Shown one piece after another: positions 15,048-28,714 of a stretch of DNA of 64,000 bases. The translations under genes were made by a program, and so were the position numbers. The stretch lies in the NCBI GenBank assembly GCA_028707125.1, contig JAQTUX010000002.1:80355-144354 (forward strand). Direction: 5' to 3'. This DNA comes from Candidatus Omnitrophota bacterium (lineage in GTDB: Bacteria; Omnitrophota; Gorgyraeia; Gygaellales; JAQTUX01). The notes beneath the pieces are model-generated. The model worked only from the letters and a program-made list of their open reading frames with translations. It was not told where the DNA came from and did no database searches. How positions within the stretch are numbered: the stretch's first letter is position 1; each line of letters begins with the position of its first letter.

Positions 15048-15049
15048 CT

Positions 15050-15766
15050 CTATCCTTCCTCTTGTGTGAAGAATTTAATAAAATCCTCTTCTGCCTTTGC
15101 CCATTCCTGCGCAGTATTGAAGGTAATATTAAATCCTTTGTGTTTATAAGCAGTCAATTCCCCTTTATCAATCAAATTATTAAAGAGCCCTATTAAGCCT
15201 TCTCCATCCGGCAAAGAAATAAGGTTATTATCAAGATCCTCCAAGACGGCTTTATCCGTAATAAAATTGCCGATATAATACGAAAAGAGAGGCTTTTCTT
15301 CAAAAAGAGTAACGCGCTGCTCTCTGTCGTACTTGACGATGCCAAAAGGGCTTCGTATATCTGCTATTGTAATGGTTAAGTTCTTCCTGCTTTTTATATG
15401 CCATTTTAATACCAGGTTCGGGTCCATGTTGACAAAGGTATCTCCGTAGGTCACTATTGCCCTATTCCCTATCAGGTCTTTTACCAAAAATAGCCTTTTA
15501 AGCATGCCCGCATCTTCTCCGGCATTAGAAATTTCAATTTTGGCGCCAAGATTACCGCGGGAGATAAACGCCTCTATGGACTCCGACAAATAACCGGTGC
15601 ACAAAATAAATTCCCTGAAACCATGACTCATATAGAATTCAACAATATGCTGGAGAATTGGTTTCTCCCCTAGCGGTATCAACGGCTTTGGCAATGCCCT
15701 GCTTAATTTACCCAACCTTCTTCCTCTGCCGCCGCATAAAATAACTACCTTATCTTTATTCATCAA
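15050..15766 (-). CDS. Sugar-1-phosphate nucleotidyltransferase (glucose-1-phosphate cytidylyltransferase-like)
   Basis: VVILCGGRGRRLGKLSRALPKPLIPLGEKPILQHIVEFY...FILCTGY parallels the RfbF-type signature (ILAGGLGTRL...KPMVEIGGKPILWHIM...FIICCGY). Confidence 0.6.
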   Translation of the reverse strand: MMNKDKVVILCGGRGRRLGKLSRALPKPLIPLGEKPILQHIVEFYMSHGFREFILCTGYLSESIEAFISRGNLGAKIEISNAGEDAGMLKRLFLVKDLIGNRAIVTYGDTFVNMDPNLVLKWHIKSRKNLTITIADIRSPFGIVKYDREQRVTLFEEKPLFSYYIGNFITDKAVLEDLDNNLISLPDGEGLIGLFNNLIDKGELTAYKHKGFNITFNTAQEWAKAEEDFIKFFTQEEG

Positions 15767-16728
15767 TTATGCCTCTCACCAGATATCTCACGGACGATAA
15801 ATACGGGTCTCCCCTTAACCTGATCATAAACTCTGCCGATATATTCGCCTAAAATACCCATTGCCGCCAGCTGTAAACTACTCAAGAAAAATACCGCGAC
15901 TACCAAAGTCGCCCAACCCGGAAGTAAAACGATATTCATCGCGATACCAAACCTTTGCAGTAACCATAGTACCATAACAAATAGAATATAAGAAAATGAC
16001 AAAGCCGATATTATGACACCGGCCAAAGTTATTAAACGCAGCGGGTTTCTGGAGAAAGCAAAAATACCGTCCAATGCAAAAGACAGTAGATCCTTGTATG
16101 AGAATTTGGATTGCCCGCTATATCGCCCATCAACATTATAGAACAGGTATTTCTGCTTAAAGCCTACCCACTCTACCTGGCCCCTTAAGAATTTATGATA
16201 TTCCGGGATCTTGAGAAGCGCCTCCAGGGCTTTTTTATCAAGCAGGCGAAAATCGGACTGTCCGAAATTGAGATTTAATCCGGATATCTTGGATATCAAC
16301 CAGTAAAACCCTTTAACAAAAAGTCGCCTCTGCCCCTTAAGATTGGGATCTTTTTTTATAGTATAGACTACCTCTGCCCCCTCGCTCCAGAATTTAAGCA
16401 TCTCGGGTATCAGCGATGGCGGATGCTGAAGGTCGGCATCCATAGTAATAACCGCATCGCCGTTTGCATAAGTCATACCGGCAAAGAGGGCGCCCTGGTG
16501 GCCGAAATTGCGGGAAAGTGAAATATAACGGACTTTATTATCCCGCTTATTGAGATCCTTTAATATTACCAGTGAATTATCGCTGCTACCGTTATCAACA
16601 AACACCATCTCATAATTGATACCGTGTTGAATACATACAGACCTCACTTCCTCATATAACTTTTCCAAGTTGCCCTCTTCGTTAAATACCGGGAACACTA
16701 CGGAAATTAAACGACTTTCATTTTGCAT
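15763..16728 (-). CDS. GT2 polyprenol-phosphate glycosyltransferase (GtrB/ArnC/Dpm1-like)
   Basis: GT-A N-terminus (ISVVFPVFNEEGNL...VFVDNGSSDNS...DADLQHPP). Two C-terminal TM helices characteristic of polyisoprenyl-phosphate sugar synthases. Confidence 0.8.
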   Translation of the reverse strand: MQNESRLISVVFPVFNEEGNLEKLYEEVRSVCIQHGINYEMVFVDNGSSDNSLVILKDLNKRDNKVRYISLSRNFGHQGALFAGMTYANGDAVITMDADLQHPPSLIPEMLKFWSEGAEVVYTIKKDPNLKGQRRLFVKGFYWLISKISGLNLNFGQSDFRLLDKKALEALLKIPEYHKFLRGQVEWVGFKQKYLFYNVDGRYSGQSKFSYKDLLSFALDGIFAFSRNPLRLITLAGVIISALSFSYILFVMVLWLLQRFGIAMNIVLLPGWATLVVAVFFLSSLQLAAMGILGEYIGRVYDQVKGRPVFIVREISGERHN

Positions 16729-16747
16729 GTCATACCTCGCATTGTTA

Positions 16748-18364
16748 TCAATTTATAAATCGCAGGTTTCGTAAAACCGGATCTTTTAAAGCCAGCGCGC
16801 TATTATACTTAAGGCGCGAAATTAGATATCTGATATTAAAAATCAAGGCTCCATTTTCAGTTAAATTAAGCGCGTTAAGCCTTCGCAAGGATTCCGTTGA
16901 CTTGAATTCACCGCAAAGGCTGCTCATCAGCATATCCGCCTCATCCTTCATGCCGGAATCAAGATAACACCAGTATAAAAGCACAGCGTAATCAAGGAAT
17001 CTCGACCTCTCCATGACGGGGGGAAAATCTATTAACCACTCCCTGTCCCGACGACTAAGCCTGTCACGATTCAGATAGCGCGATTTAACCCATAAACTCT
17101 GAATTAACCATTCCCGATAGCCGTTCCCCGCCCACTCTCTTAGGGCGGGTAAATCTTCCCGCCCGTCCCTGCAGCGCACCAAACTATGGGCCTTGCCGAT
17201 AAAATCCTTATCGGCACAACCGCCCTCTGCCTGAAACAGGGTTTTTTCGGCATAGGAAGCGTAACCCATCCAGGCCCAGAAAAATGCCAGTTCTATCAGG
17301 CGTTCTTCAGGCCTGTATAATTCCTCTCCGGCGGCAATCCGGATAATGCATGAAACGACTCTTTCAAGGGATTCTCTCGGGGAAAATGACGATATGTTAT
17401 CGCGTACCGCCGTATATAAATCCCTGCTGTTCATCTCTATCTTCTTTAATAATCTCTCCAGATCTCTGTGGTCATTAATTATCGCCTCGTCCAATAAACC
17501 ATGGAAAAATGTCTTCCTGCCTAAAGGGATAACGGCTACGGGAATATCTCTCTGCAAAGCATCAATAATTACCTGGGAATTCCCGCGGTTAAGCAATATA
17601 TCCGTGATATCCAGTATCTCATCAATAGGCATGCGCGAATCGGCAATCTTGGCGCGCGGAGAGTGCCGCCTTAGCGAAACGGCAAAATCATCCTTACGGT
17701 CTTCAGGGTGCGGCTTGATAAGCAACTCGTAACTTTCCGGCAACCCCTGAGTTACGCAGGCAATTAATTTACTGCATACTTCCCCAGCGTTTGCATCGGA
17801 AGATATGGCATCGAGGCACAACGTAGCAGTATGTTTACGGTTGGATAGACCAAATATGCCTTTTAATTTATTCAGCTGGCTTGGCGGCTTACGCCTGCTA
17901 TATCCGGAAATGCATCCAGTGGTTTCTATTGTCTCGGGAGCAATGCCTGTCTCAATAAACTTCAACCTTTCATAATCAGAAGCCACGAGAAGACGATCCA
18001 CCGGCAAAAGATAATTATTCAACAAGCCCTGGTGCAGCATCATCTGATACACCTCTTCAATCGCTATAACCGGGATCCTTCTCAGCGTCGCCTCTTGTAT
18101 TAAATGGCACGGCGGGATACGCGGCTGGGAAGTAAAAAGCACCAGGGCAGAAACCCCATCAAAAACACCCTGCGGCAACTTGGGAAAATACCTTCCCTTA
18201 AAATAAAAAACCTCATCGGCAGAACCCCTGTCCATATCGGAGAACCAGGGTAGTCTGCGGTTGTAAATACATCTTATCGTCCAATCCGGAAGGAATTCTC
18301 TGAATATCCCCATATTTCTTGCATGCACAATGCTCACCGGATTAAAAAGCAAGACCTTGCCCAT
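16748..18364 (-). CDS. Hypothetical protein; possible GT-B-like (TagF/KpsS-like) sugar/polyol-phosphate transferase domain
   Basis: 538 aa, no TM. Weak GT-B-like C-terminal pattern (KPHPEDRKD...DILLNRGNSQVIIDALQRDIPVAVIPLGR). Family not identified. Confidence 0.35.
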   Translation of the reverse strand: MGKVLLFNPVSIVHARNMGIFREFLPDWTIRCIYNRRLPWFSDMDRGSADEVFYFKGRYFPKLPQGVFDGVSALVLFTSQPRIPPCHLIQEATLRRIPVIAIEEVYQMMLHQGLLNNYLLPVDRLLVASDYERLKFIETGIAPETIETTGCISGYSRRKPPSQLNKLKGIFGLSNRKHTATLCLDAISSDANAGEVCSKLIACVTQGLPESYELLIKPHPEDRKDDFAVSLRRHSPRAKIADSRMPIDEILDITDILLNRGNSQVIIDALQRDIPVAVIPLGRKTFFHGLLDEAIINDHRDLERLLKKIEMNSRDLYTAVRDNISSFSPRESLERVVSCIIRIAAGEELYRPEERLIELAFFWAWMGYASYAEKTLFQAEGGCADKDFIGKAHSLVRCRDGREDLPALREWAGNGYREWLIQSLWVKSRYLNRDRLSRRDREWLIDFPPVMERSRFLDYAVLLYWCYLDSGMKDEADMLMSSLCGEFKSTESLRRLNALNLTENGALIFNIRYLISRLKYNSALALKDPVLRNLRFIN

Positions 18365-19402
18365 CTAAGATATTCCTTTAATCTTATCAAACATCTTTTC
18401 TATCTTCTTTACTGCGCTCTGCGTGTAGTCAGAAACCTTTGATAACTCATCATCGCTAAAACTGTCATATTGAGAAATCATCCGCTCGTTTAGACTCTCG
18501 AAATTTACAAGCCTGTTATTGTTTAAACCGATATCTTGCATTATACCTTCAATCTTATGCGAATTTGAGCTCAAGGCCAAGAAAGGCGTCTCTGTCGTCA
18601 GGGCAAAACAAAGCGCATGGAATCTTGCAGTTATCAGCATCCTTAAATTGCCGACTATTTCAATATAGTCCTTCCAAGAATTAACATAATAGAGCCTCCT
18701 TTCATAAGCATGGTCCAAAGCATATCCTAAAACCCTGTTTTGTAGAAAAGTCATTGCATTTCGCCCTTCATACTTTATTTTTTGAAAAAGTTTCATAGGA
18801 TTAAATACCCCTTCCAATCTGTAGGGCCTTACTAAAGGCAGATAAACAAAACGCTTTGACCTCTTGGAATAATTGTACATCTTTTGAGAAAGGTGTATAT
18901 AAGCGCTATCTGTAAATCCTATTCTGTCCGACCTTCTTCTCTGGGGGGCATCTTTTGCATCGCTGAAGAGCGTCATATCGGGGACTATCTCGCTATTAAC
19001 GCCTAATCTATCCAATTCTCTCTTACTTAAACTCTCTCGGACAAATATCAAATCAAAATTCTTCATATATCCCGCACACTCTTCATTGTTAGCATGATAT
19101 ACGGCATTTATCAATACTACGGGAATGTTTAATTTCTTACAATATTCGCTGACCTTAACCAAATACAACCCTTCTTTCTGGTTATGATGAATGGTCCCTT
19201 CGCCGTTAACTATCACAATATCGCTTTTCCTGACATTCCTGATAAATCTCGTATTGCATTCCCAATTTACGCCTACTGGATTTGTATCTATAACATCAAT
19301 ATTCTTTTTATGTAATAAATATCTGATATTCTTCATCACAAGCCGGCATCCATGCTCCATTTCAAAAAAAGTATCATTTAATATTACAGCCCTCTTTTTC
19401 AT
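18365..19402 (-). CDS. Polysaccharide pyruvyl transferase family protein
   Basis: C-terminal motif LITARFHALCFALTTETPFLALSSNSHKIEGIMQDIGL resembles the conserved RxHAxI...P...SY..K...F core of CsaB/WcaK-type pyruvyl transferases. Confidence 0.5.
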   Translation of the reverse strand: MKKRAVILNDTFFEMEHGCRLVMKNIRYLLHKKNIDVIDTNPVGVNWECNTRFIRNVRKSDIVIVNGEGTIHHNQKEGLYLVKVSEYCKKLNIPVVLINAVYHANNEECAGYMKNFDLIFVRESLSKRELDRLGVNSEIVPDMTLFSDAKDAPQRRRSDRIGFTDSAYIHLSQKMYNYSKRSKRFVYLPLVRPYRLEGVFNPMKLFQKIKYEGRNAMTFLQNRVLGYALDHAYERRLYYVNSWKDYIEIVGNLRMLITARFHALCFALTTETPFLALSSNSHKIEGIMQDIGLNNNRLVNFESLNERMISQYDSFSDDELSKVSDYTQSAVKKIEKMFDKIKGIS

Positions 19403-19431
19403 AATTTCCCTGCGCCGATATTCATCCCGCC

Positions 19432-21219
19432 CTAAATCCTGAACTGGATATCATATAGCCTTCTGTATAACCCGTTTCTCTCCAGCAGTTCCGCGTGCCT
19501 TCCGGACTCTGCCACCTTGCCCTCTTCTAAAACAATAATATTATCCGCGTGCACTATGGTTGAAAGCCTGTGCGCGATGGCTATGACCGTACGTTCTCTT
19601 GCCAGCTCGTCAATCGCCTCCTTAATTAATCTTTCCGTCTCGGTATCAAGGGAACTGGTGGCCTCGTCTAAAATCAATACCTCAGGATTATGTATTATTG
19701 CCCTTGCGATGGAAATCCTTTGTTTCTGTCCGCCGGACAACCGGACGCCTCTTTCTCCCAGTACGGTATCATAGCCGCTGGGAAGCCCTGTTATAAATTC
19801 ATGTGCATTAGCCGCCCTTGCGGCCCTGAATATTTCCGTATCAGGTATGCCATCATGCCCATATGCTATATTATCCTTAACGCTGGCATTGAAAATAAAG
19901 GTGTCCTGAGACACAAAACCGATTTTTCTCCTCCAAACCCTCAGATCAAGCGCTTTCAGATTCACTCCGTCAACCAGTATCTGCCCCAACTCCACATCGT
20001 AGAATCTGACGATCAAATTAATTATGGTGCTTTTACCTGCGCCTGAAACCCCCACGAATGCGGTCATTTTTCCCATGGGAATCTTGATGTTCAGTTTATT
20101 TAAAACATATCTATCCGCATTATCGTAAGAAAAATAGACATCCCTGAATTCTATGGAATCACGCACCTTATCAATCTTCTTCTGTCCGCTGATTATCGTT
20201 CTTTTTCCCTCCCTATCATACATATCTTCGTAATTTTCGAAAGCCGCCAGCCTGCTTATCGCCGTAGAACGGTATGTATTCAAGCTGTTTAATTGAGTTA
20301 GCATCCTCGCGAGAACTAGCAAATATGTGGCAATAAAAGGGAATGATCGCGCCATATCAATCTTTATTACATTGATAAGCGCAAGGAAACATAAGAAGAT
20401 CAGTCCAAAAATTAGCGCTTCGGATAAAGGTATGATGAGATGTATGTTTTTATTGGTCTGATAGTGTAAAAGATACAGCTTCCTGGTCGCATTATTAAAT
20501 CTGCCCTTCTCCAGATCTTCTGTGCTGCAGCTCTTTATCAGCGCCATGCCTCCCAATATCTCCATTAACTTATGATTATACTCTTTGATTGACTCTGATA
20601 TGCTTCTTCCGATCCGCTTAATGTTCTTCATAATTAATTCAATGGGCATTAAAACGGCTGCGGTCAAAAGAAAAACTATTATACTTGCCCTCCACGATAT
20701 CAAGAACAAAATAATCACATATGCCAGTATTCTGGCAAGAACCGCAACGAAGGTAAGCACGGCCAATATAAAATCACCCATACGCTCTGTTTCGGCATTA
20801 ATGACCCCTATGATATTGCCCGTCTTTACGCCGTGGAAAAATTGTATATCGTACTCTATGAGATTACCCATAAGGTTTATTCTAAGATCCCTGATGGTGC
20901 TAAATCTTAATTTAGCGATCAGTATATTCGAAAGATATAAAAAGACATTTTTCATAACCAGCATCAGAAATATAAATATGAAAATCAGCAGTATTGCGTC
21001 TGACTGATTTAAGGACGCAAATGATATAACTGATCCTTTTAAAAATGGCAATTCTTGAAATAAACCTGTTTTATTGCTTATCATGCTCTGAATAAGGGGG
21101 ATAAGCATGCCGAAGCTGGCGCCTTCAAAGAAGGACGATGCCATAATTGAGAATAGGGCGCTCCAACTCAATAAAGGATATCTTCTTAGATATTTTAATG
21201 TGATGGATAAGAACTTCAT
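19432..21219 (-). CDS. ABC transporter permease/ATP-binding protein (MsbA-like exporter)
   Basis: Six-helix TMD followed by Walker A (GVSGAGKST), ABC signature (LSGGQKQRISIARA) and Walker B (ILDEATSSLD). Confidence 0.85.
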   Translation of the reverse strand: MKFLSITLKYLRRYPLLSWSALFSIMASSFFEGASFGMLIPLIQSMISNKTGLFQELPFLKGSVISFASLNQSDAILLIFIFIFLMLVMKNVFLYLSNILIAKLRFSTIRDLRINLMGNLIEYDIQFFHGVKTGNIIGVINAETERMGDFILAVLTFVAVLARILAYVIILFLISWRASIIVFLLTAAVLMPIELIMKNIKRIGRSISESIKEYNHKLMEILGGMALIKSCSTEDLEKGRFNNATRKLYLLHYQTNKNIHLIIPLSEALIFGLIFLCFLALINVIKIDMARSFPFIATYLLVLARMLTQLNSLNTYRSTAISRLAAFENYEDMYDREGKRTIISGQKKIDKVRDSIEFRDVYFSYDNADRYVLNKLNIKIPMGKMTAFVGVSGAGKSTIINLIVRFYDVELGQILVDGVNLKALDLRVWRRKIGFVSQDTFIFNASVKDNIAYGHDGIPDTEIFRAARAANAHEFITGLPSGYDTVLGERGVRLSGGQKQRISIARAIIHNPEVLILDEATSSLDTETERLIKEAIDELARERTVIAIAHRLSTIVHADNIIVLEEGKVAESGRHAELLERNGLYRRLYDIQFRI

Positions 21220-22748
21220 GATAATCTCTTAATGATAAAACCTTTGATTTTGGACAATTTCTCAAATACCGCTCTCTCTAAAGAGATAAAGAGAAAGAAA
21301 TTGAAGCGCATTCTAAACGAAGATACTATCTCCCTTATCCTCCCTTTAAAACTGGGATTATAGAAGGCGATCTGCCTATAGGCATATACCATTGCATTCA
21401 ATCTGCGGGGATTATCGATCCATTTATAATTATCAAATGATTCATAACCAAAGCTATCTACAAATTCCCTTTCAGAAAGCTTTGCCCACTCTTTAAGGCT
21501 GCGAGGCGGAGAATAGCCGTAATTATCCACGATTTCCTTATAAAGCGGTGACCCTGGGTATGGCCTGAAAGGAGTAACAGAAACACAGCTTATCTTTACC
21601 ATGTTCCTGATTTTCAATGCAAGACGATAAGTATTTTCAATATCCCTTTCTGTCTCTCCGGGAAGCCCGACCATAAAATTCATTTTAGGAATGATGTTGG
21701 CTCTGGACAGCATCTCAGCCGCTTTAATAATTTGCTCAACCTTAAGATTTTTTTTCAATTTATCCAGCATTGACTGTGAGGCGCTCTCCACTCCCATCGC
21801 CGCAACAACCATGCCTGAACGGCTTAATCTCTTTACTGTCTCAAAATCGACATAATTATCGCTGAAATAATCCGCCCTTGTCTGAGGCCGCCACTTGATA
21901 TTCAAATTTTCCTTCTCTAACAGATCAAGGAATTCAAATGTTCTTTTCCTGTCAACAAAGAAGTTTTCATCTAATGGCTGGATGAAATCAGCGCCGTAAT
22001 TGCTCTTGAGAAATTTAATCCTCTCTACGATCTCTCCCGCCTCGCGAAAACAGCATTTCTTTCTGACTATCACGTTAATACAAAAGGTGCATTGGTAAGG
22101 GCACCCCAACGCGGTTACAATGGGATAGGCCCTGGTATCTTTGTACTGCCCGCTATAGAAATCCTCGATAGCAACGCTATTCCTTCTGGAGTATCGTTCA
22201 TGGTCTAGTAATGAAAAATCAATAAAAGGGGTGTTACTAAAATCGTCCTTGCATTTATTTTCTTCATTTGCTTTTATGCGCCTGCCTGTTTTATAAAATA
22301 TCCCGGGGACGCAAGAGAGATCATCTCCGCGGGAAATGGTTTCACCCAATTTAACAATGGTAGCAGCGGCATCGTTGACAACGGCTATGTCAACCGCAGG
22401 GTCTTCGACTGTCTGCTCGGGGAAAAGTGTCGGATGCACCCCTCCCCAGGCAACCGCTGCATCGGGGAACTTTGCCTTTATGGCCCGTGATACAAAATAC
22501 GACCAAGGCAGTTGTATCGTCATCACGGAAAAACCTACAAACGCCAGGTTTTCATCAATCTCGGACAGTATAGCTTTTGTCGCATCCCCAATATCCAGAT
22601 AAGTGCCGTCAATCACCTTGACCTGAAATCCGGCCCTGTCCAGAATAGTAGCCAATATCATTATTGCCGTATTCGGATAAAGGCCGTAATCCGGACGCCT
22701 GTGAAAATGAATTCCAGGATTAACTAAAATAACCTTGTTTTTTCGCAT
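21216..22748 (-). CDS. B12-binding domain-containing radical SAM protein
   Basis: B12-binding N-terminus (AWGGVHPTL...DIAVVNDAAATI). CxxxCxxC (GCPYQCTFCIN). Confidence 0.85.
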   Translation of the reverse strand: MRKNKVILVNPGIHFHRRPDYGLYPNTAIMILATILDRAGFQVKVIDGTYLDIGDATKAILSEIDENLAFVGFSVMTIQLPWSYFVSRAIKAKFPDAAVAWGGVHPTLFPEQTVEDPAVDIAVVNDAAATIVKLGETISRGDDLSCVPGIFYKTGRRIKANEENKCKDDFSNTPFIDFSLLDHERYSRRNSVAIEDFYSGQYKDTRAYPIVTALGCPYQCTFCINVIVRKKCCFREAGEIVERIKFLKSNYGADFIQPLDENFFVDRKRTFEFLDLLEKENLNIKWRPQTRADYFSDNYVDFETVKRLSRSGMVVAAMGVESASQSMLDKLKKNLKVEQIIKAAEMLSRANIIPKMNFMVGLPGETERDIENTYRLALKIRNMVKISCVSVTPFRPYPGSPLYKEIVDNYGYSPPRSLKEWAKLSEREFVDSFGYESFDNYKWIDNPRRLNAMVYAYRQIAFYNPSFKGRIREIVSSFRMRFNFFLFISLERAVFEKLSKIKGFIIKRLS

Positions 22749-24639
22749 ATGAATTAATTAAATCAAAAATGGACTGCCGTTCATTCTCCGTATAAATATA
22801 CTGATCAAATAAATGACTGTCCCGCTCCCTGTCCATACTTAAATTAAGAATATTACTTATTGCGTATTCTAAATCCCTGCTTTCCTTAACATGATAAAGC
22901 GCCCTGCGCGGTAAATGGCTGCCCGATTCTATTGCATAGGCCGGGATATGCTGATAGCGCCCCATTCCGCCATACAGCAGGACCGGGATCCTATTCTGCA
23001 ATGCCTCCTCAATAGTTGTAGACGAAAAACTTACCAATAAATCGGCTATCCCCAGAATATCAATAAATCTTCCCTCAGTACTCAAGATAACTTTTTCTGA
23101 AAAAGGCACTATACTTTTAATGGTATCCAGGGTAATCTCAAAAGACGGACGAATCCTTATTATAAGGACCGTATCCGGTATTTTCTCCACACTGGCGGCC
23201 AGATCGACTAATGATTGAAGGTATTCGTCGCCTGTTTCATACACATAGAACCGCGAGTATATTTTTGAGGTACCGGCGTGCAAAACAATCCTTGTTTTCT
23301 TACGATCATATTTCTTACTGAACATGCCTTCATATAGTGCTCTACTTTTAGCTGGATCCACCGGAGTTCCCCATATTAAGGGGCCGCTTCTTATGATTTT
23401 ACTTTCCGAAGGAAAGACCTTAAGGTATCCTTCTGCGAGCGGGGTTTGTAAGGCGAGCAAAGAAAAGGGAGCGCTTAAAAACATCCTGCCCTGCTCTCCC
23501 CATTCAATCATCTCATAATCATTCTTCGGCTGCACATGAGAACCATGGCTGATGAAAATAAGCGGGATATTATTACTATCGGCCATCTCGGCAAGGGCAA
23601 CATCATCAGGACGATTCCCGCAGCTTAAGATTGCGATCGGCTTTGCTGGCTTAATAAAGTTGTTCAGTCTTACTAACCAAACAAAAAGATAGATAATATA
23701 ATTCATAATATTATTCCGGGGATCTTGAGCCAAGAAAACACCCAGCATGATTCCTCTGTATGAAAATAGCGCAGAATCAGCATTGATTTTCTTAACTAAC
23801 TCATTGAATGACTTCCTTTGATCCTTAATGATTGTTCTCAATTTATTATTTAACATACGAATAATAAAATCCGGTAAACAGCAATCAGGTATCGCGGGAT
23901 CATTCAGAAAGAATAATCTGTTCTTTCCGTATTCACCCTTGATCTTCTCAGCGAGTTTATCCATATTATAATGTTTCGTAGTCAATAAAATAAAACTCCT
24001 GTTATTCAGCAGATTTTCTAATAGCCGTTTTCTTGACCATAATGAAAATTCAAACCATCTGAATAAAAATCTGGACAGGTTTTTAGCATTGTGCTTTATC
24101 CGCGCAAAGCTGCCATCTTTATAATCGCCGATCTCTTCAAACCGTAAAGATTTTTCCTGGCTGACTGATTTAACGATCTGGCCTGCATAATTCTCCGGGA
24201 AACTGTTCATTTCATCCGGGTAATATTTTTTCTCAGAAAGGCTGGCCGCAATGACCGTAGGGTGGTGAACATCAACGGCATTATAAACTATCTCTATTAA
24301 TTTTAATGAATAGTGCATCCTCAGACGGGATAAGAAAACAAACGCTTCCCTGCAGGCATGCTGATGGCCGAATTCAGACTCGGCGATCTTTACGTTTTCC
24401 CGCAGCCAACCTGTCAGGGCCCTGGACTTATCCAGCACTCTTTTGTGGGATTCGGTTGTAAAATATGGGAGTGTATTGTGCGCGGGAATATTCAACCGCT
24501 TCAGATATGAGTAAACAGCCGGACTCAGGGCAATAAATAAAATACCCCTACCGGCTAAACCGTTGTCTTGCAGGTCACTATGCAGATACCTGTCAACCTG
24601 TGAATTCTTACTGACAAAAATCAGCTTCTGCATTATCAA
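22720..24639 (-). CDS. Hypothetical large protein with GT-B-like C-terminal half (possible glycosyl-/phosphotransferase)
   Basis: 639 aa soluble. C-terminal Rossmann-like pattern (IAILSCGNRPDD...STTIEEALQNRIPVLLYGG). Family not identified. Confidence 0.35.
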   Translation of the reverse strand: MIMQKLIFVSKNSQVDRYLHSDLQDNGLAGRGILFIALSPAVYSYLKRLNIPAHNTLPYFTTESHKRVLDKSRALTGWLRENVKIAESEFGHQHACREAFVFLSRLRMHYSLKLIEIVYNAVDVHHPTVIAASLSEKKYYPDEMNSFPENYAGQIVKSVSQEKSLRFEEIGDYKDGSFARIKHNAKNLSRFLFRWFEFSLWSRKRLLENLLNNRSFILLTTKHYNMDKLAEKIKGEYGKNRLFFLNDPAIPDCCLPDFIIRMLNNKLRTIIKDQRKSFNELVKKINADSALFSYRGIMLGVFLAQDPRNNIMNYIIYLFVWLVRLNNFIKPAKPIAILSCGNRPDDVALAEMADSNNIPLIFISHGSHVQPKNDYEMIEWGEQGRMFLSAPFSLLALQTPLAEGYLKVFPSESKIIRSGPLIWGTPVDPAKSRALYEGMFSKKYDRKKTRIVLHAGTSKIYSRFYVYETGDEYLQSLVDLAASVEKIPDTVLIIRIRPSFEITLDTIKSIVPFSEKVILSTEGRFIDILGIADLLVSFSSTTIEEALQNRIPVLLYGGMGRYQHIPAYAIESGSHLPRRALYHVKESRDLEYAISNILNLSMDRERDSHLFDQYIYTENERQSIFDLINSYAKKQGYFS

Positions 24640-24648
24640 TTCCCGCTC

Positions 24649-26004
24649 CTATTTCCACCACGTGTTAATTAAAAGAGAGGCCAATCCAAAATCCTCCTTA
24701 TTCCTTACCTCTAAATGAGAATAAGGGTCGTTAAGCTCATAAATGCCGATCTTCTTCCCTAAAAGGTTTCCCTGCCTGATAAATTCCGGATGTGTGACAC
24801 AGGCGACTCCTTTAAGTTCCATAAATGTGGGGTCTTTAAATTCTCTGGGGGTAAGCCCTTCGACAATTTGCTGTATACTGCCCTCTTTCTGGTGCCACAT
24901 TGCTTTATTCTCTCTTCTTGCGGCTATCACGCTATCAAGGCCATCCTGCACAAGCTGCAAGATCATATCGTCTATCAGGCCTTTTGGGCGGAAGGGGAAG
25001 GTGATCTCGAGGCATACAACTATATCAGGGAGTATTTTTAAATCTTCAATTTTATTCAAAGAGTATTGATATACTTTAGCCAAATCAACGGACTCCTTGG
25101 AAAAAGAGGCGTCTCTGATAAACGGTGCCTCGGCGCCTAAATCTTTGGCTAAATCAGCCAACTGGATATTATCCGTAGAAACGATTGTTTTCTTAATATA
25201 TTTTGATTCAAATGCCCTTTTTAAAGTATAGGACAAAAGAGGTTTATTATCTAAGTACTGAGCCGGACCCTTGACAGGAATCAATGCCGCAATATTAAGT
25301 TTATCTACGTCAATCGACTTATAAGTATAATCCGAATGCAAAGATTTCAATACCCGCACTACATTCGTGCATCTTTCCGCATCGCCGTTCTGATGTATAC
25401 CGTGGTAATGATACACGCTGGCCTCTGGTTCGTATATGACCTTAAATCCCTTCTGCAATATATTCTGCGCCCAAACCCTGTCTTCTATATTAGTTATACC
25501 CTCATCAAATGGAGCCTCATGCCAGATATCTCTGCGGATCATACTATTGGCATTGTGAAAGAGACTGTCCTTCAGCTGGACCTTGCGGTCAAGCCCGAAT
25601 ACCAAAGCCAGGTCCCTCTTGTCGGCGTCAGAGGTGAAATCCAATGCCTCCTGCCTGCCGTAAACCCCCGCTACCTTAGGATCGTCAAAATTAAGCAAAA
25701 GCTTATTCAGCCATTGGTCATTTACCGGTATGCAATGGCCGGCCAAAGACACGATATATTCCCCTTCTGCCTCCCTTATACCCATATTAAGGGCTTTGCC
25801 GGGCCGGTAATCCCTGCAGGTAACAACCCTCTTAACGGGGTATTGCCTGACCTTCTCCAGCGTCTTATCGCTGCTTTCATTATCCACTATAATAACCTCA
25901 AAATTCTTATGTTTTTGACTGAAAACCGCATTTAGGCAAGAGACAATCCAACGCTCCTCGTTCTTGGTCCTTACAATTACGGAGACCTTCTTATCACTCA
26001 ACAT
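24649..26004 (-). CDS. Bifunctional GT2 glycosyltransferase / CMP-sugar-synthetase-like cytidylyltransferase fusion
   Basis: N-terminal GT-A (VSVIVRTKNEERWIVSCLNAV...EVIIVDNESSDKT). C-terminal CTP_transf_3-like (IAALIPVKGPAQYLDNKPLLSYTLKRAFESKYIKKTIVSTDN). Confidence 0.65.
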   Translation of the reverse strand: MLSDKKVSVIVRTKNEERWIVSCLNAVFSQKHKNFEVIIVDNESSDKTLEKVRQYPVKRVVTCRDYRPGKALNMGIREAEGEYIVSLAGHCIPVNDQWLNKLLLNFDDPKVAGVYGRQEALDFTSDADKRDLALVFGLDRKVQLKDSLFHNANSMIRRDIWHEAPFDEGITNIEDRVWAQNILQKGFKVIYEPEASVYHYHGIHQNGDAERCTNVVRVLKSLHSDYTYKSIDVDKLNIAALIPVKGPAQYLDNKPLLSYTLKRAFESKYIKKTIVSTDNIQLADLAKDLGAEAPFIRDASFSKESVDLAKVYQYSLNKIEDLKILPDIVVCLEITFPFRPKGLIDDMILQLVQDGLDSVIAARRENKAMWHQKEGSIQQIVEGLTPREFKDPTFMELKGVACVTHPEFIRQGNLLGKKIGIYELNDPYSHLEVRNKEDFGLASLLINTWWK

Positions 26005-26962
26005 AAAGATTTACCCTTTCATGATTATTGTTCAGACAATTAACCGCATTTTCCAAGGCGCGCTTAGTCATATTAATGGCGGTAATCTTATCCAGGGCTG
26101 CTATATGTGGCGAACAGACAACATTGGGATGCCCGGCTAATTCTCTTGAGATATCAGAAACCGGCTCATTAGAAAAAACATCGGTAGCGTAGCCTGCGAT
26201 CTCGCCCCTTTTTAAGGCCTCTAACAACAGGCCCTCATCAACCAATCCTCCCCGGGCCGTATTAACTAAATATTTACCGGCCAGTTCTCTTAATATATCT
26301 CCGGATATGATATTGCTGGTTTCTGCCGTCAATGGTAAATGCAGAGATATGATATCGGAAAGCTTTATTATCTCTTCTAAGCCATGGGCGCATGGATATT
26401 TATCCGTTTTTGTGGTCCGGTTATACAATAAGATTTTAAAACCCAGCATGGCGGCTAAATCTGCCAATGCCTGGCCGATCCTGCCAAAACCAACAACGCC
26501 AAGAGTAATAGCCTCTTCGGAGATATTGGGCTTTCGCAGCCAGAGCCCTTTCTTAAGATTTCTGTCGTTTTCCGTTATGCGATGGGTTAAAGACAGAATA
26601 AGGGCGAGCGTATGCCTGGCAACAGCAGTAGAGCTTACTGCCCTGGTCCTGGTAACCCTTACCCCAAATCTCCTCGCAGATTCCAGATCGATAGAATCGC
26701 AGCCTTCTCCAAATCTTGAAATTACCTTAAGGCCGCGGCAAGATTCAAGCATACCGGATGTGATCGGTTCAAGGTCAAGGACCACCGCGTCTTTGTCTTG
26801 AAGAAAACTGATAAGTTTTCCCGGTTCATCCACGCGCCCATAAGTAGACGTGAGATCAATATCTTCCAGCAGTGAATCCGGCAAGCGACTTAATGATTCG
26901 CAGGCCTCTTTAGGCGTAATCAGGATCCTGTATTTCGTAAAAGCTTTCGATCTTTTATTCAA
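25994..26962 (-). CDS. D-isomer-specific 2-hydroxyacid dehydrogenase (PGDH/GHPR-like)
   Basis: NAD-binding motif GVVGFGRIGQALADLAAMLGFKILLYNR. Catalytic Arg/Glu/His region (NTARGGLVDE...SPHIA). Confidence 0.8.
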   Translation of the reverse strand: MNKRSKAFTKYRILITPKEACESLSRLPDSLLEDIDLTSTYGRVDEPGKLISFLQDKDAVVLDLEPITSGMLESCRGLKVISRFGEGCDSIDLESARRFGVRVTRTRAVSSTAVARHTLALILSLTHRITENDRNLKKGLWLRKPNISEEAITLGVVGFGRIGQALADLAAMLGFKILLYNRTTKTDKYPCAHGLEEIIKLSDIISLHLPLTAETSNIISGDILRELAGKYLVNTARGGLVDEGLLLEALKRGEIAGYATDVFSNEPVSDISRELAGHPNVVCSPHIAALDKITAINMTKRALENAVNCLNNNHERVNLYVE

Positions 26963-27743
26963 GCGTCCTGCCTCCGTCTACAACTATATTTTGTCCGGTA
27001 ACGTAAGTTAAGGGCCCCACCAAAGAAAACACCGCGTTGGCAGTATCTTCGCAGGCACCCAACCTGCCTAAAGGGGTCCTTTTTATTTGTTCGGCTTTAT
27101 AATCTTTCCAATCTTTGATCAACGCGGTCTCCGTCAGGCCCGGACTTATTGCGTTTACCCGTATATCCGGAGCCAACGCCCTCGCCAGAGATTTAGTCAT
27201 GTTGACTATTCCTGCCTTCATGGCGCAATAGGCGATATTACTCCCTACGGCTGTGATCGCCGCGATAGAAGCAATGTTAACTATTGAGGCTTCTTTGGAT
27301 TTACGCAATAAGGGCAACGCCTTCTGTATGCAAAGAAAATAACCGCGCAAATGTAACTCATACATTTCATCGAAGATATCCTCTGTCAGCTCATCCACTT
27401 TATGATGTTCAATGAAATGCGTTGACCCTGCATTGTTGACGAGGATGTCGAGGCGGCCGTATTGCGCCTCAATCTGTCCCATCATCTCGCAGACCTGGGC
27501 TGAGGACCTTATATCGGCCCGTATATAGCGGTGGCGCTGTCCTTTATCCGCCGGCAGCTGCGACAATACCTCTTCTGCCTCCCTATCCGACTTAGAGGCG
27601 TTTATAATAATATCCGCGCCTTCTACGGCAAGGCGCAGAGCGATCGCCCTGCCTATGCCCCTGCTTGAACCAGTTACCAGGACTACCTTATCCTCCAGAT
27701 TCATTCCTTTTCTTCCTTTCGCTTGAATGACCTGTTTATCCAA
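26955..27743 (-). CDS. SDR-family oxidoreductase (3-oxoacyl-ACP-reductase-like)
   Basis: VVLVTGSSRGIGRAIA Rossmann motif, NNAG, and YCAMKAG catalytic YxxxK. Confidence 0.85.
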   Translation of the reverse strand: MDKQVIQAKGRKGMNLEDKVVLVTGSSRGIGRAIALRLAVEGADIIINASKSDREAEEVLSQLPADKGQRHRYIRADIRSSAQVCEMMGQIEAQYGRLDILVNNAGSTHFIEHHKVDELTEDIFDEMYELHLRGYFLCIQKALPLLRKSKEASIVNIASIAAITAVGSNIAYCAMKAGIVNMTKSLARALAPDIRVNAISPGLTETALIKDWKDYKAEQIKRTPLGRLGACEDTANAVFSLVGPLTYVTGQNIVVDGGRTLE

Positions 27744-28714
27744 TTATGGGCATCGATCAGACTCCCGCTATTTACTTCTTTCCACAATTTGCTTACGGCC
27801 GGGTATCCGGAGCTGCCTTCCTTATCCAAGTCCTTTGCAAATTTTCCGCTCTTTATCCTGCTGATAATCTTTCGCGCCTTCTTTTCGGCTTCTTTGCCTA
27901 TTGCCGTATCAAAATAAGCGGCGATCCCATACTGGCATGTAGGAGATGCGTTTTCCTGAAACACCTTTCCGATACCCGCCTCTGAAGCCATCCTGATGAC
28001 CTCTGCGAGCTCGCCTGAAGCATATAACTCCATAAGCGCCGCTGCCGGCTGATAATGCATTTCATCCACCAAAACCTTAAAACCTGTATGAATGGCCTTA
28101 ACTATAGCGGATACGAGAAATTGTTCGATAAAGAGGTCCAGCTCTGCCTCGGTCTTGTAGTCCACCTTCATGACACCTGCCCTGGTAAATCCGGCTGCCC
28201 TGGACAGCGCAAGCAATATCTGCCAGGCAGAACCGGTCTCATTCCGGGCAACATCTACGAAGGCCGGGACCCCGCGCCCTCTTAAAAAGTAATCCCTGAT
28301 TTGACGCCCCGGCATACGCGGCGCGAGCATTGCTACATCAATACCACTGGGAAGTTTTATGGTCTTAAAACGCAAGGCATACCCGTGGGCAAATACAATC
28401 ATGCTTTTTGGCTTTAAGTAATCCTTTATATGCCTGTTAAATACATGGGCCTGCGCTTGATCGGGGATCAGAAACAAGATAACATCCGATCTACTCACTA
28501 ATTCATTAAACTTATGTATTTTAAAACCGTCCTGAATTGCCTGTTTGGCGTAACGGTCTTTACGATTTGCGACCAATACCTTGATACCCGAATCCCTGAT
28601 ATTCAACGCCTGTGCGCGGCCCTGAATACCGTAGCCGATGATACCTACTGTCTTATTCTTCAGCCATTTTAGGTCCGCGTCTTTATCGTAATATATCTTT
28701 CCCATATTAAACAC
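27701..28714 (-). CDS. Ketol-acid reductoisomerase (KARI, IlvC family) homologue
   Basis: Class-I KARI N-terminus (LKNKTVGIIGYGIQGRAQALNIRDSGIKVLVANRK) and length 337 aa. Embedded in a glycan locus rather than an ilv operon. Confidence 0.7.
   Translation of the reverse strand: MFNMGKIYYDKDADLKWLKNKTVGIIGYGIQGRAQALNIRDSGIKVLVANRKDRYAKQAIQDGFKIHKFNELVSRSDVILFLIPDQAQAHVFNRHIKDYLKPKSMIVFAHGYALRFKTIKLPSGIDVAMLAPRMPGRQIRDYFLRGRGVPAFVDVARNETGSAWQILLALSRAAGFTRAGVMKVDYKTEAELDLFIEQFLVSAIVKAIHTGFKVLVDEMHYQPAAALMELYASGELAEVIRMASEAGIGKVFQENASPTCQYGIAAYFDTAIGKEAEKKARKIISRIKSGKFAKDLDKEGSSGYPAVSKLWKEVNSGSLIDAHNWINRSFKRKEEKE

What the first reader, a model, noticed from the sequence alone, without database searches (positions are those of the whole stretch)
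24649..26004. GT2 glycosyltransferase fused to a CMP-sugar-synthetase-like cytidylyltransferase domain (copy 1)
A single polypeptide combines an N-terminal GT-A domain with a C-terminal CTP_transf_3 (CMP-Kdo/NeuAc synthetase-like) domain. This would couple nucleotide activation of an acidic sugar directly to its transfer. It recurs at 37742..39112, which argues against a chance mis-assembly.
Basis: partly seen in the sequence, partly recalled or inferred. Interest (0 to 1): 0.6.

Follow-up and report, generated by a model that had tools for sequence, protein, structure and literature searches.

The report
Glycosyltransferase fused to a degenerate CMP-sugar synthetase
Both genes really do encode a family-2 glycosyltransferase fused to a CMP-sugar-synthetase-like domain, an uncharacterised architecture seen here in species of well over a dozen bacterial phyla, but that domain has lost the loop and acidic residues needed to use CTP, so sugar activation is probably done by separate, intact synthetases encoded nearby.

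Summary
ORF A (24649..26004, minus, 451 aa) and ORF B (37742..39112, minus, 456 aa) are uninterrupted GT2 + CTP_transf_3-like proteins. They are old paralogs (23% identity) from two separate families. Each family has about 2,000 to 2,900 metagenomic relatives. Family A was found in 172 species genomes (Omnitrophota, Planctomycetota including anammox bacteria, Patescibacteria, Desulfobacterota, SAR11, Legionellaceae, Roseibium and others).

The C-terminal domain has a NeuA fold (TM about 0.8 to CMP-Neu5Ac, CMP-Pse and CMP-Kdn synthetases). It keeps the cytosine-reading Arg and the STD and TxPFR motifs. Family A has deleted 8 residues of the CTP-binding P-loop, including the Lys21 and Asn22 equivalents. 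Family B has replaced those residues. Both lack the two Mg-binding Asp. None of 224 + 120 fused domains has a canonical P-loop, whereas all 10 stand-alone synthetases checked do.

Intact stand-alone cytidylyltransferases lie nearby (29728..30444, 41694..42422; 66 of 80 related loci). The C-domain also diverges faster than the GT domain.

Most likely this is a GT-A enzyme of a CMP-ulosonic-acid glycan pathway. Its pseudo-synthetase domain would bind a cytidine-linked ligand or dock the real synthetase. No characterised member was found. Interest is moderate.

The parts
24649..26004 (-). ORF A (451 aa): GT2 domain + NeuA-like domain, family A
   Evidence: ORF; Pfam and NCBIfam; AF2; Foldseek; 100% identical NCBI protein from a Ca. 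Omnitrophica MAG.
25390..26004 (-). ORF A N-terminal GT-A (GT2) domain, aa 1-205. The DXD position is replaced by S-[G/A]-H-C (H90, C91). FHNANS, E174-D175-R and YHxHG are invariant.
   Evidence: Column frequencies over 225 family members; alignment against ORF B, where the same columns read D-A-D-D.
24652..25299 (-). ORF A C-terminal NeuA-like (CTP_transf_3) domain, aa 236-451. The P-loop is truncated and the Mg-binding Asp pair is absent.
   Evidence: Pfam match starts at profile position 20. MAFFT map onto NmCSS/1eyr. 0 of 224 members have a canonical P-loop. Fold match TM about 0.8.
37742..39112 (-). ORF B (456 aa): GT2 domain with canonical DADD + NeuA-like domain, family B
37745..38416 (-). 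ORF B C-terminal NeuA-like domain, aa 233-456. Loop length is kept, but S15/K16/K21/N22 equivalents are Y/D/L/W, and D209/D211 equivalents are hydrophobic.
   Evidence: Family consensus 'IPCR.nyD..pdlW'; map onto NmCSS; 0 true P-loops in 120 members.
29728..30444 (-). Stand-alone cytidylyltransferase (238 aa) with an intact P-loop (VREGSSRIKDKN), upstream of ORF A in the same operon-like array
   Evidence: Pfam CTP_transf_3 1.2e-12; sequence; NCBIfam PseF/KdsB partial.
41694..42422 (-). Stand-alone SpsF/KdsB-like cytidylyltransferase (242 aa) with an intact P-loop (ARMSSRRFPKK); part of the family-B cassette
   Evidence: Pfam 4e-24 over the full profile; PDB 6oew 1e-21; the cassette is conserved in L004, L005, L086, L087, L088.
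39816..41669 (-). AsnB-type glutamine amidotransferase (617 aa), member of the family-B cassette
   Evidence: Pfam; NCBIfam; conserved next to family-B fusions.
39115..39825 (-). NeuB-type synthase lacking the SAF domain (236 aa), member of the family-B cassette
   Evidence: Pfam NeuB 5.8e-52; NCBIfam NeuB/PseI partial; same short form in L004, L005, L086, L088.
22720..24639 (-). U639: 639-aa protein with no Pfam family, directly downstream of ORF A. GT-B fold; candidate CMP-sugar transferase or NeuC-like enzyme.
   Evidence: Directly downstream of the fusion in 33 of 80 related loci. AF2 pLDDT 88. Foldseek best hits are UDP-GlcNAc 2-epimerases including NeuC. Weak BFO_1060-family hit.
35872..37716 (-). 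U614: 614-aa protein with no Pfam family, directly downstream of ORF B. Co-occurs with the family-A module in other phyla.
   Evidence: No Pfam hit. 44% identical homolog in the Brocadiaceae locus L001. Hits in 15 of 80 loci. Weak TIGR04417 hit.
34684..35868 (-). GFO/IDH/MocA oxidoreductase, the most conserved neighbour of family-A fusions
   Evidence: 58 of 80 loci, median 376 bits.
32085..33158 (-). Ldh_2-family 2-hydroxyacid/2-ketoacid dehydrogenase, conserved neighbour of family-A fusions
   Evidence: 49-52 of 80 loci, median 427 bits; Pfam 8e-109.
19432..21219 (-). Fused ABC exporter (membrane + ATPase domains), frequent downstream neighbour (order FUS-U639-ABC)
   Evidence: Pfam; 19-20 of 80 loci.

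Best explanation
ORF A and ORF B are cytoplasmic two-domain enzymes of a pathway that builds a glycan containing CMP-activated ulosonic or nonulosonic-type acids.

The N-terminal GT-A (GT2) domain is the conserved catalytic part. The C-terminal domain descends from a NeuA-type CMP-sugar synthetase but is no longer a synthetase. It keeps the fold, the Arg that reads cytosine and the STD and TxPFR core motifs. In family A it also keeps the domain-swapped Arg of the dimerisation arm. It has lost the P-loop that binds the CTP phosphates and ribose, and it has lost the Mg2+-binding Asp pair.

CMP-sugar is therefore made by the separately encoded, intact cytidylyltransferases. The degenerate domain most likely acts as an adaptor. 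It could bind the CMP-linked sugar (or CMP), or pair with the real synthetase through the NeuA-type dimer interface. Either way, a labile CMP-sugar would be handed to, or acted on by, the attached GT-A domain.

Shown: the architecture, fold, distribution, motif loss, presence of separate synthetases and faster divergence of the C-domain. Inferred: loss of synthetase activity, ligand binding or docking, and the nature of the sugar.
For: 1. Architecture and fold.

2. Motif loss. The Pfam match to ORF A begins at profile position 20. MAFFT mapping onto NmCSS, whose sequence was verified identical to PDB 1eyr, shows an 8-residue deletion in family A. It removes the K16-L23 equivalents. S15 becomes A/V, and D209/D211 become L/E and V/R. 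Family B has the conserved substitutions Y, D, L, W at S15, K16, K21, N22 and hydrophobic residues at D209/D211.

3. Counts. A canonical P-loop is present in 0 of 224 family-A and 0 of 120 family-B fused domains; two regex hits were false and lay in the linker. It matches the regex in 9 of 10 stand-alone cytidylyltransferases, and the tenth (VREGSSRIKDKN) is canonical on inspection.

4. Published mutagenesis. K21 and R12 are needed for CTP binding. R165A and D209A are inactive. D211A lowers kcat 15,000-fold (PMC2901514). Arg71 reads cytosine, Asn22 the ribose, and R12/G14/S15/K16/K21 the phosphates (PMC6580227).

5. Retained features. D278, R297 (the Arg71 equivalent), P337 and F338 are invariant across both families. 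The P-R-Q motif matching NmCSS P164-R165-Q166 is kept in family A.

6. Separate intact synthetases. They lie at 29728..30444 and 41694..42422. At least one stand-alone CT lies within 8 kb in 66 of 80 family-A loci. One is adjacent in every family-B locus examined.

7. Relaxed constraint on the C-domain. Mean pairwise identity of GT versus C-domain is 72/66% (close family A), 52/22% (family A at 50% clustering) and 63/49% (family B). Further relatives carry even more degenerate CT-like tails.

8. Link of the family-A GT domain to ulosonic-acid chemistry. The same 'SxHC' GT domain is found fused to NeuB-like/SAF modules (P0267, P0229). Its neighbourhoods hold NeuB, DAHP-synthase-like enzymes or HpcH aldolases plus cytidylyltransferases.
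Against: No biochemical test was possible.

The close family-A C-domain is still 66% conserved, with many invariant charged residues (E365, N366, W370, R387, K390, R410, E432, R434). That fits a ligand pocket, but it could also fit a non-canonical catalytic site.

The stand-alone synthetase type that most often accompanies family A (L001_9263 type, 48-53 of 80 loci) has an intact P-loop but also lacks the D209/D211 pair ('IIIKT'). So absence of those Asp alone is not proof of inactivity.

Heterodimerisation with the stand-alone synthetase was not tested. Only 15 of 80 loci had the stand-alone gene immediately adjacent in my count.

The donor and acceptor of the GT domains are unknown.
Confidence: 0.5

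Rival explanations
1. One reading: a truly bifunctional enzyme. The C-terminal domain makes the CMP-sugar from CTP, and the N-terminal GT-A domain transfers it, all within one polypeptide.
For: Significant CTP_transf_3 and PseF hits. Whole-domain structural match to CMP-sugar synthetases. Strong conservation of the C-domain within close family A (66%). Retained Arg12-like K/R, Arg71-like R297 and Arg165-like R387. In family A the GT domain lacks DXD, which is also true of CMP-sugar-using sialyltransferases (general knowledge; PMC5420450 discussion).
Against: The P-loop is deleted or substituted in every one of 344 fused domains, and the Mg ligands are absent. Those residues are essential in characterised enzymes (PMC2901514, PMC6580227). 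Intact stand-alone synthetases are co-encoded, which would be redundant. The C-domain evolves much faster than the GT domain in the wider family.
Confidence: 0.1
2. A nucleotide-sugar tailoring or biosynthetic enzyme rather than a glycan-building transferase. In one version the degenerate NeuA-like domain holds the CMP-ulosonate as substrate, and the GT-A domain modifies it by adding a sugar at the CMP-sugar level. In another version the GT-A domain acts as an NDP-sugar hydrolase, a GT-A counterpart of PseG/NeuC, that feeds the NeuB-type condensation step.
For: Family A is unusually conserved for a glycan GT (47-76% identity across phyla). It travels with equally conserved small-molecule enzymes: GFO/IDH/MocA in 58 of 80 loci and Ldh_2 in 49-52 of 80. 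Its GT domain is also found fused to NeuB-like/SAF modules. No PseG homolog was detected in the window, and no sequence-level NeuC homolog either; U639 resembles NeuC only by fold. Separate GT-B candidates for the actual CMP-sugar transfer exist (U639, U614). There is precedent for a CTP_transf_3 domain fused to a tailoring enzyme: EpaA (CTP_transf_3 + aldo-keto reductase) converts Pse to 8ePse (PMC12053666).
Against: No direct evidence for any substrate. U639 itself resembles NeuC-type 2-epimerases by fold, so it could fill the hydrolase role. Family B keeps a canonical DXD and looks like an ordinary NDP-sugar GT2.
Confidence: 0.25
3. The NeuA-like domain is only a structural or oligomerisation module (a homodimerisation handle) with no nucleotide or sugar binding. 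The protein is an ordinary GT2 unrelated to CMP-sugars.
For: The C-domain diverges quickly in the wider family, and some relatives have barely recognisable tails. Family B has also lost the Arg165-like motif.
Against: The cytosine-reading Arg and the STD and TxPFR core are invariant across both families. Linkage to cytidylyltransferases and ulosonic-acid synthases is persistent across well over a dozen phyla. The GT domain has independent fusions to NeuB-like modules.
Confidence: 0.15

Closest known systems
CMP-nonulosonate / CMP-Kdo synthetases (Pfam CTP_transf_3: NeuA, PseF, LegF, KdsB; PDB 1eyr, 6ifd, 1qwj, 9ftc, 9t4z)
   Same: Same fold over the whole domain, including the dimerisation arm (TM 0.74-0.84). 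Shared STD motif, cytosine-reading Arg (Arg71 = R297) and TxP(L/F)R motif. Arg165-like PRQ in family A.
   Different: The P-loop is deleted (A) or substituted (B). The Asn22 ribose contact is lost and the Asp209/Asp211 Mg ligands are lost. The domain is fused behind a GT-A domain. It evolves faster than its partner domain.
Family-2 GT-A glycosyltransferases (SpsA, K4CP, heparosan synthase, WrtF, RmlT, PcManGT)
   Same: Pfam PF00535 well above cut-off. GT-A fold. DxSxD nucleotide-binding motif and ED(R) candidate base. ORF B has a canonical DADD.
   Different: Family A has S-[G/A]-H-C where DXD should be (H90 100%, C91 99%), plus invariant FHNANS and YHxHG. Both families carry the NeuA-like tail.
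Multidomain cytidylyltransferase fusions: EpaA of A. baumannii prophages (CTP_transf_3 + aldo-keto reductase; PMC12053666) and NeuA of E. coli K1 / group B Streptococcus (synthetase + O-acetyl esterase; from general knowledge)
   Same: A NeuA-type domain is joined to an enzyme that acts on the same nonulosonic acid, so the CMP-sugar chemistry and a second activity are tethered.
   Different: In those proteins the cytidylyltransferase domain is N-terminal. In NeuA it is catalytically intact. Here it is C-terminal, degenerate, and partnered with a GT-A domain.
DXD-less, metal-independent CMP-sugar transferases of GT-A-like fold (GT42 CstII, GT29) - resemblance recalled from knowledge and from the discussion in PMC5420450
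   Same: Family A's GT domain lacks DXD and has invariant histidines, as expected for a donor with a monophosphate leaving group.
   Different: No detectable sequence relationship was tested or found. Family A is clearly GT2 by sequence. This is a lead, not a membership.
Tannerella forsythia Pse/Leg transferases (BFO_1060 / Tanf_01245 family; PMC5420450) - relevant to neighbour U639, not to the fusion
   Same: U639 is a GT-B-fold protein encoded directly next to CMP-sugar genes. It has a weak match to the nucleotide-binding part of this family.
   Different: 19 bits against a cut-off of 200. The best structural matches of U639 are UDP-GlcNAc 2-epimerases. Not a member.

Membership tests
GT2 glycosyltransferase (Pfam PF00535, GT-A fold) | Profile match above the curated cut-off | tested here: met
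   ORF A 88.5 bits and ORF B 89.6 bits, against a cut-off of 23.3.
GT2 glycosyltransferase (Pfam PF00535, GT-A fold) | GT-A Rossmann-like fold | tested here: met
   AF2 model of ORF A (pLDDT 90.8) matches K4CP, heparosan synthase, PcManGT, WrtF, RmlT and CgT. ORF B was not modelled.
GT2 glycosyltransferase (Pfam PF00535, GT-A fold) | DXD metal/diphosphate-binding motif | tested here: not met
   Family A has S-[G/A]-H-C in these columns (H90 100%, C91 99% of 225 sequences). ORF B and family B have LD(A)DD, so the feature is met for B.
GT2 glycosyltransferase (Pfam PF00535, GT-A fold) | Glycosyl transfer activity with a defined donor and acceptor | not testable with these tools
   Needs enzymology.
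CMP-sugar synthetase (CTP_transf_3; NeuA/PseF/LegF/KdsB) | Profile match above the curated cut-off | tested here: inconclusive
   ORF A 37.2 bits (cut-off 22.6) but only profile positions 20-120 of 217. ORF B 21.5 bits, below the cut-off. No NCBIfam equivalog cut-off is reached (PseF 55 and 33 bits against 205.7).
CMP-sugar synthetase (CTP_transf_3; NeuA/PseF/LegF/KdsB) | NeuA fold with dimerisation arm | tested here: met
   TM (target-normalised) 0.74-0.84 and rmsd 2.3-3.9 A (4.8 A for the apo 9ftb entry) to 6ifd, 1qwj, 9t4z, 9ftc and 1eyr, for ORF A.
CMP-sugar synthetase (CTP_transf_3; NeuA/PseF/LegF/KdsB) | P-loop after strand 1 (Arg12, Ser15, Lys16, Lys21, Asn22 in NmCSS) binding the CTP phosphates and ribose | tested here: not met
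   Family A has an 8-residue deletion and keeps only the Arg12-like K/R. Family B has Y, D, L, W at S15, K16, K21, N22. 0 of 344 fused domains have the motif, against 9 of 10 controls by regex and 10 of 10 on inspection.
CMP-sugar synthetase (CTP_transf_3; NeuA/PseF/LegF/KdsB) | Mg2+ ligands (Asp209, Asp211; Gln104) | tested here: not met
   A: L/E and V/R (E432, R434), with E333 at the Gln104 position. B: hydrophobic residues. Caveat: the partner stand-alone L001_9263-type enzymes also lack this Asp pair.
CMP-sugar synthetase (CTP_transf_3; NeuA/PseF/LegF/KdsB) | Cytosine-specific Arg (Arg71) and STD / TSP(L)R core motifs | tested here: met
   D278, R297, P337 and F338 are invariant over 104 sequences of both families.
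CMP-sugar synthetase (CTP_transf_3; NeuA/PseF/LegF/KdsB) | CTP + sugar -> CMP-sugar + PPi activity | not testable with these tools
   Needs enzymology. Predicted absent.

The most novel reading that the evidence does not exclude
Family A defines a previously unrecognised, DXD-less 'SxHC' GT-A enzyme dedicated to CMP-ulosonic-acid chemistry. Its built-in pseudo-synthetase domain captures the CMP-sugar, or pairs with the true synthetase as a pseudo-dimer, forming a channelling complex for a labile CMP-sugar. Together with a GFO/IDH/MocA oxidoreductase, an Ldh_2 dehydrogenase, a P-loop-bearing but Asp-less cytidylyltransferase and two large GT-B-like proteins (U639, U614), it would form a conserved, horizontally mobile module. 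That module would make an undescribed acidic surface sugar in SAR11, anammox bacteria, Omnitrophota, Patescibacteria and Legionellaceae.
Probability: 0.25. Interest if true: 0.65.

Novelty: new variant of a known kind. Interest (0 to 1): 0.45.

Why it matters
Enzymes that transfer bacterial nonulosonic and related acidic sugars are poorly known, and CMP-sugars are labile. A conserved glycosyltransferase with a degenerate synthetase domain would be a clear example of a pseudoenzyme recruited as a substrate-handling or docking module in glycan synthesis. It would also flag a whole conserved gene module, present in abundant environmental bacteria (SAR11, anammox bacteria, Omnitrophota), whose sugar product is unknown.

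There is a practical point too. Automatic annotations such as 'CMP-N-acetylneuraminic acid synthetase/GT2 glycosyltransferase' probably over-call a synthetase activity for thousands of database proteins.

Tried and rejected
1. I tested whether the two large proteins downstream of the fusions (22720..24639 and 35872..37716) are paralogs, which would indicate a duplicated module. BLASTP found nothing. They belong to separate families, though both recur with family A elsewhere.

2. A regex count first suggested 2 of 120 family-B members with an intact P-loop. Inspection showed both matches lie in the linker ('ARRQIK'), so the true count is 0.

3. A genome scan with the mixed A+B alignment failed because no conserved stretch was found. 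It was repeated with the smaller alignment. As a result, the genome-wide distribution was obtained for family A only.

5. Literature searches found no characterised GT2-cytidylyltransferase fusion. I searched domain names, 'bifunctional' and Omnitrophota. Absence from this open-access library is not proof of absence.

6. No NCBIfam equivalog covers either protein.

7. Rfam found no RNA family in the window.

8. My count of synthetase genes immediately adjacent to the fusion (8 upstream, 7 downstream of 80) is probably an underestimate, because overlapping ORFs were filtered out. I rely on the count within 8 kb instead.

9. The heterodimer idea could not be tested.
Full report
**1. What is in the sequence**

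The window is one continuous array of about 55 genes, all on the minus strand. Almost all of them have glycan-biosynthesis domains.

ORF A (24649..26004, 451 aa) and ORF B (37742..39112, 456 aa) are uninterrupted reading frames.

- Both score strongly as family-2 glycosyltransferases (Pfam PF00535, E about 1e-25).
- ORF A also passes the Pfam cut-off for CTP_transf_3 (37.2 bits against 22.6). The match covers only profile positions 20-120 of 217.
- ORF B falls just short (21.5 bits).
- Both have partial hits to the PseF model.
- The two proteins align over their full length at 23% identity. They are ancient paralogs, not recent copies.

ORF A is 100% identical to an NCBI protein from a Candidatus Omnitrophica MAG on a 510-kb contig.

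**2. Structure**

An AlphaFold2 model of ORF A, built on 104 homologs, is confident (pLDDT 90.8, pTM 0.87).

Foldseek against the PDB gave two kinds of match:

- The C-terminal domain matches entire chains of CMP-Neu5Ac, CMP-Pse and CMP-Kdn synthetases. These are 6ifd, 1qwj, 9t4z, 9ftc and 1eyr, with target-normalised TM 0.74-0.84 and 17-22% identity.
- The N-terminal domain matches GT-A enzymes (K4CP, heparosan synthase, PcManGT, WrtF, RmlT).

**3. The fusion is old and widespread**

- ORF A has more than 2,800 relatives in the 90%-clustered protein collection. The top 120 are all full length at 64-76% identity.
- In the 50%-clustered library, 499 representatives score below 1e-30. About 100 of the best 150 span both domains.
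- ORF B has about 2,000 relatives.

A pattern scan of one genome per species confirmed family A in 172 genomes. The groups include:

- Omnitrophota
- Planctomycetota, including Scalindua; a Brocadiaceae member came from the protein search
- Patescibacteria
- Thermodesulfovibrionales
- Desulfobacterota
- Margulisiibacteriota, Saganbacteria and Lindowbacteria
- Cyanobacteria
- Acidobacteriota
- Bacteriovoracaceae
- Legionellaceae
- Pelagibacteraceae
- Rhodospirillales
- a cultured Roseibium

Family B occurs in Omnitrophota, Deltaproteobacteria, Calditrichota and Candidatus Methylopumilus.

This rules out chance or mis-assembly. It also means the architecture is already catalogued in databases, where some records are auto-named 'CMP-N-acetylneuraminic acid synthetase/GT2 family glycosyltransferase'. 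I found no characterised member in three places:

- the PDB by sequence
- NCBIfam
- the searchable literature

**4. The synthetase-like domain is degenerate**

I verified that my reference sequence for the N. meningitidis enzyme is identical to PDB 1eyr. I then aligned it with stand-alone cytidylyltransferases from the window and related loci, and with fused domains of both families.

Family A:
- It lacks 8 residues of the loop after strand 1. The deletion corresponds to NmCSS K16-L23 and removes Lys21 and Asn22.
- Ser15 is replaced by A/V.
- Only the Arg12-like K/R survives.

Family B:
- It keeps the loop length.
- It has conserved Tyr, Asp, Leu and Trp at the positions of Ser15, Lys16, Lys21 and Asn22. 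The consensus reads 'IPCR.nyD..pdlW'.

At the Asp209/Asp211 Mg2+ site, family A has L/E and V/R (E432, R434) and family B has hydrophobic residues.

A regex for the canonical loop matched 9 of 10 stand-alone enzymes, and the tenth, VREGSSRIKDKN, is canonical on inspection. It matched 0 of 224 family-A domains and, after removing two false matches in the linker, 0 of 120 family-B domains.

Published work shows these residues matter:
- Lys21 and Arg12 are needed for nucleotide binding.
- R165A and D209A are inactive.
- D211A lowers kcat 15,000-fold (PMC2901514).
- The P-loop residues contact the phosphates, Asn22 the ribose and Arg71 the cytosine (PMC6580227).

Not everything is lost. D278 (STD motif), R297 (the Arg71 equivalent), P337 and F338 (the TxPFR motif) are invariant across both families. 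Family A also keeps a P-R-Q motif matching P164-R165-Q166 of the dimerisation arm.

**5. Further signs that the domain is an accessory**

The C-domain diverges faster than the GT domain. Mean pairwise identities, GT domain versus C-domain, are:

| Set | GT domain | C-domain |
|---|---|---|
| Family A, close relatives | 72% | 66% |
| Family A, 50%-cluster representatives | 52% | 22% |
| Family B | 63% | 49% |

Relatives that first looked like 'GT plus unknown tail' turned out to carry still more degenerate versions of the same domain (hmmsearch E 1e-14 to 1e-7).

Intact synthetases are encoded separately:

- In the window they are at 29728..30444 and 41694..42422. The latter matches a Leptospira cytidylyltransferase structure, 6oew, at 1e-21.
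- Of 80 family-A loci, 66 hold at least one stand-alone cytidylyltransferase within 8 kb.
- Every family-B locus examined has one beside the fusion.

**6. Genomic context**

Family A travels with a recognisable module. Counts over 80 loci:

| Neighbour | Loci | Note |
|---|---|---|
| GFO/IDH/MocA oxidoreductase | 58 | median 376 bits |
| Ldh_2-family dehydrogenase | 49-52 | median 427 bits |
| NeuA-like synthetase of one particular type | 48-53 | |
| U639-type protein | 33 | directly downstream of the fusion |
| B12-binding radical SAM enzymes | 24-27 | |
| ABC exporter | 19-20 | |

The usual gene order is GFO-Ldh2-(rSAM)-CT-fusion-U639-ABC.

The carbon-carbon bond-forming enzyme varies between loci:
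- DAHP-synthase-like, 14 loci
- HpcH aldolase, 9
- HMGL-like, 9
- NeuB, 8

This suggests a family of related ulosonic acids rather than one sugar.

Family B belongs to a compact cassette of fusion, SpsF-like synthetase, AsnB-type amidotransferase and a NeuB lacking its SAF domain. In one genome the cassette sits beside a relaxase and an integrase. In another it is reduced to three genes among housekeeping genes.

U639 has no Pfam family, but it models confidently as a GT-B fold. Its closest structures are UDP-GlcNAc 2-epimerases, including NeuC. It has a sub-threshold match to the BFO_1060 family, which contains the genetically validated Pse/Leg transferases of Tannerella forsythia (PMC5420450). 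So the module has other candidates for the CMP-sugar transfer step.

**7. The GT domains**

Family B has a canonical DADD motif. Family A does not. The same columns read S-[G/A]-H-C, with His90 in 100% and Cys91 in 99% of 225 sequences. Also invariant are:

- FHNANS
- E174-D175-R, the usual position of the catalytic base
- YHxHG

Loss of DXD is known from CMP-sugar-using sialyltransferases; that is general knowledge, also discussed in PMC5420450. It is therefore compatible with a CMP-linked donor, but this is a lead and not a test.

The same 'SxHC' GT domain also occurs fused behind NeuB-like/SAF modules (P0267, P0229). That ties it independently to ulosonic-acid chemistry.

Family A is conserved at 47-76% identity across very distant phyla. 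This is unusual for a glycan-specific GT. It is why I keep a biosynthetic or tailoring role as the main rival.

**8. Conclusion**

The best-supported reading is a GT-A enzyme of a CMP-ulosonic-acid pathway. Its NeuA-derived domain has become a non-catalytic adaptor that binds a cytidine-linked ligand or docks the true synthetase. I give this a confidence of about 0.5.

The rivals, with my confidence in each:
- A tailoring or hydrolase role at the nucleotide-sugar level, about 0.25. The precedent is EpaA, a CTP_transf_3 + aldo-keto reductase fusion (PMC12053666).
- A purely structural tail, about 0.15.

There is one main caveat. The partner synthetase type most often found with family A also lacks the Asp209/Asp211 pair. 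The case for inactivity therefore rests mainly on the missing P-loop.

None of these readings can be settled without enzymology. The cultured Roseibium carrier offers a route to genetics.

Noticed in passing
window 1..64000: All ~55 genes longer than 150 aa lie on the minus strand, often with overlapping stop and start codons. GC skew is negative in every 2-kb bin. The whole 64-kb window is a single co-directional glycan-biosynthesis island from a Ca. Omnitrophica MAG.
   Followed up: partly
window 44475..47607: An FkbH-like protein (45817..47607) is followed by a 79-aa acyl carrier protein (45581..45820), a 141-aa MaoC-type hot-dog dehydratase (45181..45606) and an SDR (44475..45191). This looks like a glyceryl-ACP-derived acyl side-chain pathway embedded in the sugar cluster. 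The two small genes were missed by the 150-aa ORF list.
   Followed up: partly
window 25994..29726: A block of two D-2-hydroxyacid dehydrogenases, an SDR and a ketol-acid reductoisomerase (IlvC-like, 27701..28714) sits between the stand-alone cytidylyltransferase and ORF A. Homologs of these genes are rare near family-A fusions elsewhere (2-6 of 80 loci). The block seems to be a lineage-specific insertion, perhaps supplying a branched hydroxy-acid substituent.
   Followed up: partly
window 4955..6454, 21216..22748, 30398..32101, 33165..34691: There are four B12-binding radical SAM proteins in one cluster. Homologs recur next to family-A fusions in 24-27 of 80 loci, including Brocadiaceae and Planctomycetota.
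   Followed up: partly
window 39816..41669, 53770..55665, 60082..61992, 10309..12294: There are three canonical AsnB-type glutamine amidotransferases. A fourth, divergent protein has only weak GATase and PP-loop matches. One of the three belongs to the conserved family-B cassette.
   Followed up: partly
window 39115..39825; loci L004, L005, L086, L088: The NeuB-type synthase is consistently short (232-236 aa, no SAF domain) in the family-B cassette. It overlaps the preceding AsnB gene by 10 nt in the window. In L086 the four-gene cassette lies next to a relaxase and a phage-type integrase, which suggests mobility.
   Followed up: partly
window 22720..24639: U639 has no Pfam family. It models as a GT-B fold with long helical insertions. 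Its best structural matches are UDP-GlcNAc 2-epimerases (WecB, NeuC, MnaA), and it has a sub-threshold hit to the BFO_1060 (Tannerella Pse/Leg transferase) family. Whether it is a transferase or an epimerase/hydrolase is open.
   Followed up: partly
window 35872..37716 and 16748..18364: Two more large proteins have no Pfam family. They have only weak NCBIfam hints: TIGR04417 'PFTS motif' polysaccharide protein and TIGR04326 surface carbohydrate biosynthesis protein. The 614-aa one recurs with family-A modules in Brocadiaceae, SAR11 and Legionellaceae.
   Followed up: partly
loci L001 9263..10000, L003 9278..9994 and 48-53 of 80 family-A loci: The stand-alone NeuA-like cytidylyltransferase that usually accompanies family A has an intact P-loop. 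At the Asp209/Asp211 position it reads 'S-I-I-I-K-T', with no acidic residue, so its metal binding must differ from that of characterised enzymes.
   Followed up: no
proteins P0267 and P0229: The family-A type GT domain (SxHC, FHNANS) also occurs fused behind a NeuB-like barrel plus SAF domain, or behind a SAF domain alone, without any NeuA-like tail.
   Followed up: partly
window 42419..44482: A 687-aa protein combines an aminoglycoside 3-N-acetyltransferase-like domain, DUF4910/DUF2172 and a C-terminal winged helix. It lies directly upstream of the family-B cassette.
   Followed up: no
window 48983..53075: There are two consecutive pairs of a small GT2 (50253..51014, 52365..53075) and a PMT_2-type GT-C membrane protein (48983..50275, 51160..52407). 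They resemble ArnC/ArnT-like polyprenyl-phosphate-sugar synthase/transferase pairs. Two further PMT_2 proteins are at 8441..10294 and 57977..59476.
   Followed up: no
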